This document shows positions 8,914 through 9,047 of a stretch of 64,000 nt of DNA, piece after piece; within the stretch, counting starts at the first letter, position 1, and each line of letters starts with the position of its first letter. A model generated the notes under the pieces. It made no database searches, was not told where the DNA came from, and saw nothing but the letters and a program-made list of their open reading frames with translations. The stretch is from a virus. Position numbers and translations under genes: made by a program. The DNA lies in the IMG/VR virus record IMGVR_UViG_3300033233_000017, positions 1 to 64,000 of that record. One strand, written 5' to 3'.

Positions 8914-8986
8914 TACTAACAGGGAACCTCACATAACGCAAGAGTTATAAACCCCTGTTGCGCCCATATAACACCTGTGTTATATT
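8914..8986. promoter_or_regulatory. Divergent promoters with two ATAAC-N6-GTTAT palindromes
   Basis: Palindromes at 8933-8948 and 8968-8983; rightward TTGCGC(8958)-17-TATATT(8981); leftward TTGCGT(8941)-17-TAGTAT. Confidence 0.7.
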
Positions 8987-9047
8987 CGGTAAACACCTTA
9001 AACTAAAAAGCCAGTGGCCCATTTTGGAACCACTGGCACTCTAATGC

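What the first reader, a model, noticed from the sequence alone, without database searches (positions are those of the whole stretch)
8914..9047. Twin ATAAC-N6-GTTAT palindromes couple the tRNA promoter to the TA promoter
Seen: palindromes at 8933-8948 (over the leftward -35) and 8968-8983 (extended to ATATAACAC-CT-GTGTTATAT, over the tRNA promoter spacer and -10). An 8-bp leader hairpin GCCAGTGG/CCACTGGC lies at 9010-9037. Inference: a single XRE dimer-binding switch controls both transcripts, so the tRNA is a regulated part of the system rather than a passenger.
Basis: partly seen in the sequence, partly recalled or inferred. Interest (0 to 1): 0.75.

Follow-up and report, generated by a model that had tools for sequence, protein, structure and literature searches.

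The report
Shared operators gate tRNA and toxin
Two matching 16-bp palindromes between a HigB-like toxin/antitoxin operon and an odd tRNA gene are the conserved binding sites of the antitoxin repressor. One of them lies on the tRNA's promoter, so this mobile cassette most likely switches the toxin genes and the tRNA on and off together.

Summary
ATAAC-N6-GTTAT occurs exactly twice in the whole 102.7-kb phage record, at 8933 and 8968, and no site differs from it by one mismatch. About 0.03 sites are expected by chance.

Comparison with about 150 related loci, mostly Acidobacteriota, shows a conserved control region.
- There are two operators of the form AT-NNN-N6-NNN-AT, 34-48 bp apart. Their half-sites change in step with the recognition helix of the XRE antitoxin encoded downstream.
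- A -35 box, usually TTGACx, lies between the operators and points at a divergent tRNA gene.
- The -10 box of that promoter is always the last 3 nt of the tRNA-proximal operator plus 3 more nt. This holds in more than 20 loci.
- Twin operators go with the presence of a tRNA: 17/22 against 4/43 loci.
- The tRNA changes identity between loci (at least eleven different anticodons), but the layout stays the same.

The toxin model matches HigB structures.

The "leader hairpin" is real and conserved, but it is built as an intrinsic terminator on the toxin strand.

The toxin promoter remains unresolved.

A link between irregular tRNAs and toxin-antitoxin systems was published in 2017 (PMC5389517). 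The shared operator/promoter design appears undescribed, and this scan had not found it before on other DNA. No binding has been shown; all evidence is comparative.

The parts
8933..8948 (.). Operator O1 (toxin-proximal), ATAAC-N6-GTTAT
   Evidence: Searches show it is unique in the genome. It is the most conserved block of the spacer in relatives, including its central CAAG/CTTG.
8968..8983 (.). Operator O2 (tRNA-proximal), ATAAC-N6-GTTAT; a perfect 9-2-9 palindrome at 8966-8985 in this copy
   Evidence: The half-sites are conserved and the spacer varies in relatives. A second operator is associated with tRNA presence.
8958..8963 (+). -35 box of the tRNA-directed promoter (TTGCGC here; TTGACx in most relatives)
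   Evidence: a -35 box lies between the two operators, 17-18 bp upstream of the -10 box, in more than 20 loci.
8978..8986 (+). Extended -10 of the tRNA-directed promoter (TG-n-TATATT). Its first 3 nt are the last 3 nt of O2. Predicted start near 8993.
   Evidence: the same register (operator end minus 3 = -10 end) in 9 genome loci and 14 metagenome loci. The start site is inferred.
8936..8941 (-). Candidate -35 box (TTGCGT) of a toxin-strand promoter, inside O1
   Evidence: TTG(C/T)GT is conserved with a 17-bp spacer to TGnTAnnnT. Its function is unresolved.
8913..8921 (-). Candidate extended -10 (TG-t-TAGTAT) of the toxin-strand promoter
   Evidence: it keeps a constant distance to O1 while the start codon shifts. 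It ends 1 nt before the ATG at 8911, so its transcript would lack that ATG.
9000..9037 (-). Hairpin (9010-9037) plus T-run (9009-9000): an intrinsic-terminator-like element on the toxin strand, lying inside the tRNA 5' leader
   Evidence: 11 pairs, tail TTTTTAGTTT; an equivalent hairpin with an A-run/T-run in 13 of 15 leader-type loci, with different stem sequences.
9048..9143 (+). 96-nt tRNA, anticodon UAU, long variable arm, G73, encoded CCA
   Evidence: It is homologous to the UAU, GUA and UAA tRNAs of relatives.
8516..8911 (-). 132-aa HigB-like toxin gene
   Evidence: No Pfam hit. AlphaFold2 pLDDT is 91.5. The best Foldseek matches are S. pneumoniae HigB (6af4, TM 0.70-0.78) and M. tuberculosis HigB1.
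7987..8553 (-). 188-aa XRE-HTH antitoxin (HigA-like), the presumed operator binder
   Evidence: Pfam HTH_3 at 2.7e-8. PDB HigA 6af3_B at E 1e-3. Helix 3 co-varies with the operator class.
7656..7979 (-). Third gene, DUF3467
   Evidence: Pfam PF11950 at 8.2e-8. The same family follows the XRE in L002.
6365..9269 (.). IS1595-type element that carries the cassette: perfect 27-nt inverted repeats at 6365-6391 and 9243-9269, transposase at 6417-7448 (+)
   Evidence: The flanking 8-mers match at only 5 of 8 positions.

Best explanation
Positions 8933-8986 form a bidirectional operator/promoter region of a mobile cassette. The cassette holds a HigB-like toxin, a HigA-like XRE antitoxin and a DUF3467 gene on one strand, and an irregular tRNA on the other.

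Proposed mechanism (inferred, not shown): dimers of the XRE antitoxin, alone or in complex with the toxin, bind the two 16-bp palindromes. The half-site centres are 11 bp apart, about one helical turn. O2 covers the spacer and the -10 box of a sigma-70-type promoter that fires rightward into the tRNA. That promoter reads TTGCGC-17-TGtTATATT, with a predicted start near 8993 and a 55-nt leader. O1 covers the -35 box of a leftward promoter-like pair next to the toxin gene. Each operator is therefore core-promoter-proximal for one direction and upstream for the other. Loss of antitoxin would de-repress the toxin operon and the tRNA together.

The conserved hairpin with its T-run, between O2 and the tRNA, most likely stops toxin-strand transcription that enters through the tRNA from reaching the toxin operon unregulated.

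What the sequences show directly is the anatomy, its conservation and the co-variation. Binding, start sites and co-regulation are inferences.
For: 1. Uniqueness: there are 2 exact sites and no near-sites in 102.7 kb.

2. The architecture is family-wide. Palindromes of the form AT-NNN-N6-NNN-AT lie upstream of toxin homologues in genome and metagenome loci.

3. Half-site class tracks helix 3 of the XRE. ATAAC goes with TKQxG[IV]SRLE, ATCAC with TTQxG[IV]SRYE, ATAGC/ATCGC with TTQT[AV]ISRIE, ATAAT with M[KRA]Q.R.., and ATATT with SNQGR... Rules drawn from the genome set predicted helix 3 exactly in 32 of 42 metagenome loci. The remaining 10 misses were near-misses apart from L134.

4. The tRNA-directed promoter sits in a fixed register. 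The -35 box lies between the operators (TTGAC in most loci), the spacer is 17-18 bp, and the -10 box is the last 3 nt of O2 plus 3 more. This holds in 9 genome loci and 14 metagenome loci.

5. Twin operators associate with tRNA presence: 17 loci have both, 5 have twin operators without a tRNA, 4 have a tRNA with a single operator, and 39 have neither. Fisher p = 5.5e-8, not corrected for relatedness.

6. The tRNA lies on the strand opposite the toxin in 20 of 20 standard ARAGORN hits among 64 metagenome loci and in 14 genome loci. Its anticodon changes between loci.

7. The gene pair is of the HigBA type. Solved HigBA-operator DNA complexes were among the fold matches (8a0x, 9chl).

8. The hairpin plus T-run is conserved, with different stem sequences, in 13 of 15 leader-type loci.
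Against: - No binding or transcript data exist for any of these loci.
- In this copy the tRNA -35 box is only TTGCGC (3 of 6), and the generic promoter scan did not call it. The window's tRNA promoter may therefore be weak or decaying.
- The co-variation and the twin-operator/tRNA association are confounded by shared ancestry.
- Five loci have twin operators and no detected tRNA, so a second operator is not strictly tied to a tRNA.
- Operator spacing varies from 34 to 48 bp, so there is no fixed helical phasing for cooperative binding.
- The leftward -10 candidate ends 1 nt before the toxin ATG. The promoter that makes toxin mRNA is therefore not identified.
- In IS1-like relatives a transposase gene follows the tRNA on the same strand, so the promoter may serve more than the tRNA.
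Confidence: 0.7

Rival explanations
1. The palindromes only autoregulate the toxin-antitoxin operon, as in ordinary HigBA systems. The overlap with a tRNA promoter has no regulatory consequence, and the tRNA is expressed constitutively or is silent in this copy.
For: Single and twin operators also occur in loci with no tRNA. The window's -35 box is weak (TTGCGC) and the promoter scan did not call it. Twin operators are standard in HigBA autoregulation; this last point rests on established knowledge and on the PDB titles.
Against: The -10 box of the tRNA promoter keeps an exact 3-nt overlap with O2 in more than 20 loci, while the O2 spacer and the leader vary. A repressor bound at O2 would cover the spacer and the -10 box. 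The second operator is strongly enriched where a tRNA is present.
Confidence: 0.15
2. The rightward promoter mainly drives or limits the transposase of the carrier insertion sequence. The tRNA is a processed leader element of that transcript, and in the window's IS1595 element this arrangement is a leftover.
For: In L002, L005, L006, L011, L022, L025, L034, L037, L052 and L064 a homologous DDE transposase of about 300 aa (Pfam IS1-type hits) follows the tRNA on the same strand. In L002, L006, L037 and L052, GGTAGTG-type inverted repeats enclose the whole cassette.
Against: The window copy keeps the operator, promoter, hairpin and tRNA without any downstream transposase. There are only 100 nt to the inverted repeat, and the transposase lies on the other side. 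The allo-tRNA-like group (L015, L016, L023, L028, L029, L057) keeps the tRNA next to the operator in other contexts. The tRNAs keep good cloverleaves and an encoded CCA.
Confidence: 0.1
3. The palindromes are not protein operators. They are back-to-back -10-like elements (TATAAC/GTTATA), or sites for a host factor or a transposase.
For: Half-sites of the ATAAC and ATAAT classes resemble -10 hexamers, and both strands of O2 read TG-n-TATAT.
Against: Related loci use half-sites that do not resemble a -10 box (ATCAC, ATAGC, ATCGC) in the same layout. These classes follow helix 3 of the XRE. The sites lie inside the element, not at its ends.
Confidence: 0.05

Closest known systems
HigBA-type type II toxin-antitoxin autoregulation (S. 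pneumoniae HigBA 6af3/6af4; P. vulgaris HigBA-operator 9chl/9chn; V. cholerae HigB2-HigA2-operator 8a0x)
   Same: The toxin gene comes first, and the toxin has a RelE/HigB fold. The antitoxin is an XRE-HTH protein related to S. pneumoniae HigA. Palindromic operators lie in the promoter region.
   Different: One of the two operators lies on the promoter of a divergent tRNA gene. The toxin family has no Pfam model. A third gene (DUF3467) and a long antitoxin tail are present.
Allo-tRNAs and other irregular tRNAs found near toxin-antitoxin systems and transposons in Acidobacteria (Mukai et al. 2017, PMC5389517; review PMC7609411)
   Same: The phylum is the same. tRNAs with a long variable arm, Ser-like features and non-Ser anticodons (UAU is the commonest) lie next to toxin-antitoxin genes and transposase genes. 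Relatives L015, L016, L023, L028, L029 and L057 have the long acceptor stem and short T stem.
   Different: The papers report proximity only. In the text searched I found no description of operators, promoters or shared control. The window's tRNA has a canonical 7/5 cloverleaf, so it is not an allo-tRNA in the strict sense.
Divergent promoter pairs under shared palindromic operators, for example Tn10 tetR/tetA with two tet operators, or P22 immI (from my own knowledge, not tested here)
   Same: Two similar palindromes in a short spacer each overlap the core promoter of one of two back-to-back transcription units carried on a mobile element.
   Different: One of the two controlled products here is a tRNA, and the repressor is a toxin-antitoxin antitoxin.
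IS1595/IS1-family insertion sequences with passenger genes (transporter IS; from my own knowledge of Siguier et al. 2009, not read here)
   Same: An IS1595-type transposase with terminal inverted repeats encloses non-transposition cargo. Relatives use IS1-like elements.
   Different: The cargo is a self-regulated toxin-antitoxin-tRNA cassette that recurs in two different IS families.

Membership tests
HigBA-type type II toxin-antitoxin system | Toxin with a RelE/HigB fold | tested here: met
   AlphaFold2 pLDDT 91.5, pTM 0.86. The top Foldseek matches are HigB of S. pneumoniae (TM 0.70-0.78, E 3.6e-4) and M. tuberculosis HigB1. No sequence-level family hit.
HigBA-type type II toxin-antitoxin system | Toxin gene upstream of an XRE-HTH antitoxin gene in one operon | tested here: met
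   The toxin is at 8516-8911 and the XRE at 7987-8553 on the same strand, overlapping by 41 nt. Pfam HTH_3 at 2.7e-8. HigA 6af3_B at E 1e-3. The order is conserved in about 60 loci.
HigBA-type type II toxin-antitoxin system | Antitoxin binds palindromic operators in its own promoter | tested here: inconclusive
   The palindromes are conserved and co-vary with helix 3. No binding assay is possible with these tools.
HigBA-type type II toxin-antitoxin system | Toxin arrests growth and antitoxin neutralises it | not testable with these tools
   This needs expression experiments.
Allo-tRNA (Mukai et al. 2017) | 12-bp acceptor branch in an 8/4 or 9/3 arrangement | tested here: not met
   The Rfam alignment gives a 7-bp acceptor stem and a 5-bp T stem for 9048-9143. 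The 9-bp complementarity at 9046-9054/9133-9141 uses two leader bases together with G73 and C74. Relatives L015, L016, L023, L028, L029 and L057 do show a 10-11-bp acceptor stem with a 4-bp T stem.
Allo-tRNA (Mukai et al. 2017) | Long variable arm and Ser-type discriminator with a non-Ser anticodon | tested here: met
   The tRNA is 96 nt with a 22-nt insertion at the variable arm, G before the encoded CCA, and anticodon UAU. Charging with serine is inferred, not tested.
Sigma-70-type promoter (tRNA direction) | -35 and -10 hexamers with a 16-18-bp spacer | tested here: inconclusive
   The window copy reads TTGCGC-17-TG-n-TATATT: 3 of 6 and 5 of 6 matches plus the extended TG. The scan tool did not list it. 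The homologous positions in relatives read TTGACx-17/18-TATAAT/TATACT.
Intrinsic (rho-independent) terminator | G+C-rich hairpin followed by a T-run | tested here: met
   Minus strand: 11 pairs (7 G-C), 6-nt loop, tail TTTTTAGTTT. It is conserved in relatives. On the plus (tRNA) strand no T-run follows in this copy.

The most novel reading that the evidence does not exclude
The tRNA is a working arm of the toxin system rather than cargo. It is a repressor-gated tRNA that can probably be charged with serine but carries a non-serine anticodon, here UAU. It is released together with HigB when the antitoxin falls. It would then either act as a second toxic effector through programmed mistranslation or shift the codon-specific action of the ribosome-dependent HigB nuclease. 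Turnover of the anticodon between loci (UAU, GUA, UAC, UGG, UAA, UUA and others) would reflect selection on which codon is targeted.
Probability: 0.25. Interest if true: 0.88.

Novelty: new variant of a known kind. Interest (0 to 1): 0.62.

Why it matters
It has been known since 2017 that irregular tRNAs of Acidobacteria, often with serine features and non-serine anticodons, sit near toxin-antitoxin genes and transposons. Nobody knows why, and several of them were inactive or lethal in E. coli tests.

This analysis gives that association a concrete and testable wiring. One repressor, two operators, a defined tRNA promoter with a fixed operator overlap, a conserved terminator and a defined toxin fold recur in dozens of loci and travel on two insertion-sequence families. 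In this case they have reached a 103-kb phage.

If the control is confirmed, it would be a toxin-antitoxin module whose antitoxin also controls a tRNA gene. That would turn an open question, whether these tRNAs are effectors, modulators or junk, into a set of ordinary promoter, binding and mistranslation assays.

Tried and rejected
Contexts were obtained with the search for related loci instead.
- A search of viral contigs with the XRE alone found nothing.
- Sequence-level classification of the toxin failed. Pfam gave no hit on the window protein and no meaningful family across the 36 homologues, and a PDB profile search also gave nothing. Only the structure prediction resolved it.
- Rfam at gathering score missed most of the irregular tRNAs. 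At E <= 1 only L016 gave a hit, to tRNA-Sec at 29.7 bits. ARAGORN with a lowered threshold gave many spurious hits. I used only those on the expected strand and position, and I treated six loci as uncertain.
- I tried several ways to fix the toxin promoter and rejected each.
  - A leaderless mRNA starting at the ATG: no -10 box lies at the right distance.
  - A start at the Leu/Ile codon before the conserved Trp: rejected because CTA, CTC and TTA occur at that position in relatives.
  - A TTG start at 8941 inside O1: the homologues favour the 132-aa form.
- An alternative leftward promoter over O2 (TTTACC-17-TGtTATATG) has no conserved -35 box in the close relatives.
- The idea that the 286-aa ORF at 9609-10469 corresponds to the transposase found after the tRNA in relatives was rejected, because BLAST found no similarity.
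- Strict helical phasing of the two operators was rejected, because the spacing ranges from 34 to 48 bp.

Full report
**Setting**

The window is the first 64 kb of a 102,726-bp IMG/VR virus record. The finding lies inside a 2.9-kb IS1595-type element. This element is bounded by perfect 27-nt inverted repeats at 6365-6391 and 9243-9269, and its transposase is at 6417-7448 (Pfam DDE_Tnp_IS1595, 2.6e-35).

The cargo on the minus strand is a 132-aa gene at 8516-8911, an XRE-HTH gene at 7987-8553 (HTH_3, 2.7e-8) and a DUF3467 gene at 7656-7979. The cargo on the plus strand is a 96-nt tRNA at 9048-9143. It has anticodon UAU, a long variable arm, G73 and an encoded CCA (Rfam 50.6 bits). The finding concerns the 136-bp spacer between the toxin ATG at 8911 and the tRNA.

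**Observation**

ATAAC-N6-GTTAT occurs at 8933-8948 and 8968-8983 and nowhere else in the window. None of 100 shuffles gave a match. The whole record has two exact sites and none with one mismatch. From base composition I expect about 0.03 sites.

The second site extends to a perfect 9-2-9 palindrome, but relatives do not keep this extension.

The hairpin at 9010-9037 is real. The terminator scan lists it on the minus strand with 11 pairs and the tail TTTTTAGTTT.

**The genes**

The 132-aa protein has no Pfam or PDB sequence match. It does have more than 150 homologues and gives a confident model (pLDDT 91.5). The best structural matches of that model are HigB of S. pneumoniae (6af4, TM 0.70-0.78), HigB1 of M. 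tuberculosis and HigB2 of V. cholerae.

The XRE protein matches the partner HigA of the same S. pneumoniae complex (6af3_B, E 1e-3). The pair is therefore a divergent toxin-antitoxin system of the HigBA type. The toxin gene comes first, and this order is kept in about 60 related loci.

**Related loci**

A profile of the toxin (A1) retrieved 67 genome loci, mostly Acidobacteriota MAGs with some Methylococcales. It also retrieved 3 viral loci and 80 metagenome loci.

- ARAGORN at standard settings finds a tRNA gene 130-230 bp upstream of the toxin, on the opposite strand, in 14 genome loci.
- It finds the same in 20 of the 64 metagenome loci that have enough upstream sequence. None of those 64 has a tRNA on the toxin strand.
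- Six more genome loci carry tRNA-like genes with a 10-11-bp acceptor stem and a 4-bp T stem, the allo-tRNA shape. L016 hits the tRNA-Sec model at 29.7 bits.
- The anticodons differ between loci: UAU, GUA, UAC, UGG, AGG, UAA, UUA, CUG, GUU, GGU and ACU. The long-arm bodies are homologous and share G73.

**The control region is conserved**

With every spacer oriented the same way, the same order recurs:

1. toxin start;
2. operator O1;
3. a -35 box that reads toward the tRNA;
4. operator O2;
5. an A-run, hairpin and T-run;
6. the tRNA.

In the six closest genome relatives, the invariant columns of the spacer are the two operators' half-sites, the centre of O1 and the base of the hairpin.

Palindromes of the form AT-NNN-N6-NNN-AT occur upstream of most family members. 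Their half-sites differ: ATAAC, ATCAC, ATAGC, ATCGC, ATAAT, ATATT, ATATC and ATCAT.

**Who binds**

The half-site class follows the sequence of the third helix of the HTH in the XRE encoded downstream. I wrote simple rules from the genome set and applied them to the metagenome set.

- They predicted the helix exactly in 32 of 42 loci.
- Nine of the ten misses were near-misses within the same helix class.
- The one clear exception, L134, changes a single helix residue.

The half-site centres are 11 bp apart, as expected for an HTH dimer on one face of the DNA. This is the pattern expected if the XRE antitoxin is the operator-binding protein. It is not independent of shared ancestry, and it is not a binding assay.

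**The tRNA promoter**

On the tRNA strand, the best sigma-70-type pair in the leader-type loci always has three features.

- Its -35 box lies between the operators. In most loci it reads TTGAC plus one more base.
- The spacer is 17-18 bp.
- Its -10 hexamer is the last three bases of O2 plus the next three, often preceded by TG.

This exact register holds in nine genome loci and in 14 metagenome loci. Two further genome loci, L009 and L064, differ from it by 3 nt.

In the window the elements are TTGCGC (8958-8963), a 17-bp spacer, TG (8978-8979) and TATATT (8981-8986). A start near 8993 would give a 55-nt leader. The window's -35 box is the weakest of the set, which is why the generic scan did not call it. 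Its closest relatives, L072-L074, read TTGACT-17-TATAAT.

A repressor on O2 would therefore cover the spacer and the -10 box of this promoter. A second operator is strongly associated with a tRNA: 17 loci have both, 5 have twin operators only, 4 have a tRNA with one operator, and 39 have neither. Fisher p = 5.5e-8, not corrected for relatedness.

**The toxin promoter**

O1 has a conserved centre. Read on the toxin strand, this centre forms TTG(C/T)GT. Exactly 17 bp downstream lies TGnTAnnnT in nearly all ATAAC-class loci. In the window these are 8941-8936 and 8921-8913.

However, the hexamer ends 1 nt before the ATG at 8911. In relatives the start codon shifts from 4 nt before the hexamer to 1 nt after it, while the hexamer keeps its distance to O1.

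A transcript from this promoter would therefore lack the toxin start codon. It may be an antitoxin-only promoter, with toxin mRNA coming from a second start overlapping O2. Alternatively, my start-site assumption may be wrong. I could not settle this. In either case an operator overlaps the candidate promoter.

**The hairpin**

An equivalent hairpin lies between O2 and the tRNA in 13 of 15 leader-type genome loci. The stems differ in sequence. An A-run lies on the tRNA side and a longer T-run on the toxin side (also visible).

It is therefore a conserved structure whose termination polarity points toward the toxin genes. In the window no T-run follows it on the tRNA strand. The most economical reading is an insulator: it stops toxin-strand transcripts that come in through the tRNA before they reach the toxin operon. 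A role in tRNA leader processing or in attenuation is not excluded.

The allo-tRNA-like group lacks the hairpin. There the tRNA starts 1-22 nt from the operator.

**Mobility**

In relatives the same cassette lies inside IS1-like elements. These have GGTAGTG-type inverted repeats, and a DDE transposase directly follows the tRNA on the same strand. In the window the cassette lies in an IS1595-type element with the transposase on the far side. The cassette has thus been carried by two IS families. In the IS1-type carriers the operator-controlled promoter may also feed the transposase.

**Comparison with the literature**

Mukai et al. (PMC5389517) reported the following.

- Allo-tRNAs, most often with anticodon UAU, are frequently found near toxin-antitoxin systems and transposon genes in acidobacterial sequences.
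- Some insert serine at non-serine codons in E. coli and are toxic.
- Several UAU species were inactive.
- The authors suggested regulatory or element-associated roles.

The 2020 review repeats this (PMC7609411). Neither text, nor my three literature searches, describes operators or a shared promoter region. The earlier notes of this scan hold nothing comparable on other DNA.

Autoregulation of HigBA systems at palindromic operators is established, and complexes with operator DNA are in the PDB. Divergent promoters under two shared operators are a classical design. The new element here is that one controlled product is a tRNA, and that this holds across a whole family.

**Verdict**

- My confidence is about 0.8 that the palindromes are the antitoxin's operators, and about 0.7 for the full model that they also gate the tRNA promoter.
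- The function of the tRNA itself remains open.

Noticed in passing
L002:1645-4474, L006:1381-4598, L037:694-4333, L052:1604-4754: The same tRNA/HigB-like/XRE/third-gene cassette lies inside IS1-like elements. These have GGTAGTG-type terminal inverted repeats, and a DDE transposase directly follows the tRNA on its strand. The window copy lies in an IS1595-type element instead. One cargo has been carried by two IS families.
   Followed up: partly
L002-L064 and L072-L146, 130-230 bp upstream of the toxin gene: The divergent tRNA changes anticodon from locus to locus: UAU, GUA, UAC, UGG, AGG, UAA, UUA (ochre), CUG, GUU, GGU and ACU. The long-arm bodies stay homologous and keep G73. This suggests anticodon turnover on a serine-like scaffold.
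   Followed up: partly
L006:2689-2837, L022:2740-2889, L138 (227-nt spacer): These three loci carry two tRNA-like genes in tandem after the operator-controlled promoter. This recalls the polycistrons of irregular tRNAs reported from soil metatranscriptomes.
   Followed up: no
window 8913-8941 (minus strand) and the equivalent positions in L072-L111: A conserved TTGCGT-17-TGnTAnnnT pair is tied to operator O1. Its -10 box ends at or beyond the toxin start codon, so it may be an antitoxin-only promoter.
   Followed up: partly
window 7656-7979 and 7987-8200: A DUF3467 gene follows the antitoxin, and the antitoxin carries a tail of about 90 aa beyond the HTH. L002 has the same third gene. Other relatives (L005, L030) have an unrelated gene of about 217 aa with no Pfam match. 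M. tuberculosis HigB1, from the toxin-antitoxin-chaperone system, is among the fold matches.
   Followed up: partly
window 6357-6364 and 9270-9277: The 8-mers flanking the IS1595-type element (CCGAAAAT and CCGAATCC) match at only 5 of 8 positions. There is no clean target-site duplication.
   Followed up: no
window 9046-9054 and 9133-9141: Two leader bases (GC) can pair with G73 and C74, extending the acceptor helix to 9 bp in the precursor. Any effect on RNase P processing is unknown.
   Followed up: no
L020:2291-2479: In one relative a cobalamin riboswitch (114 bits), not a tRNA, lies divergently upstream of the toxin gene.
   Followed up: no
L028:3606-3698: ARAGORN reports a 93-nt tRNA(CUC) on the toxin strand inside the region that should encode the antitoxin. 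It may be spurious or a second irregular tRNA.
   Followed up: no
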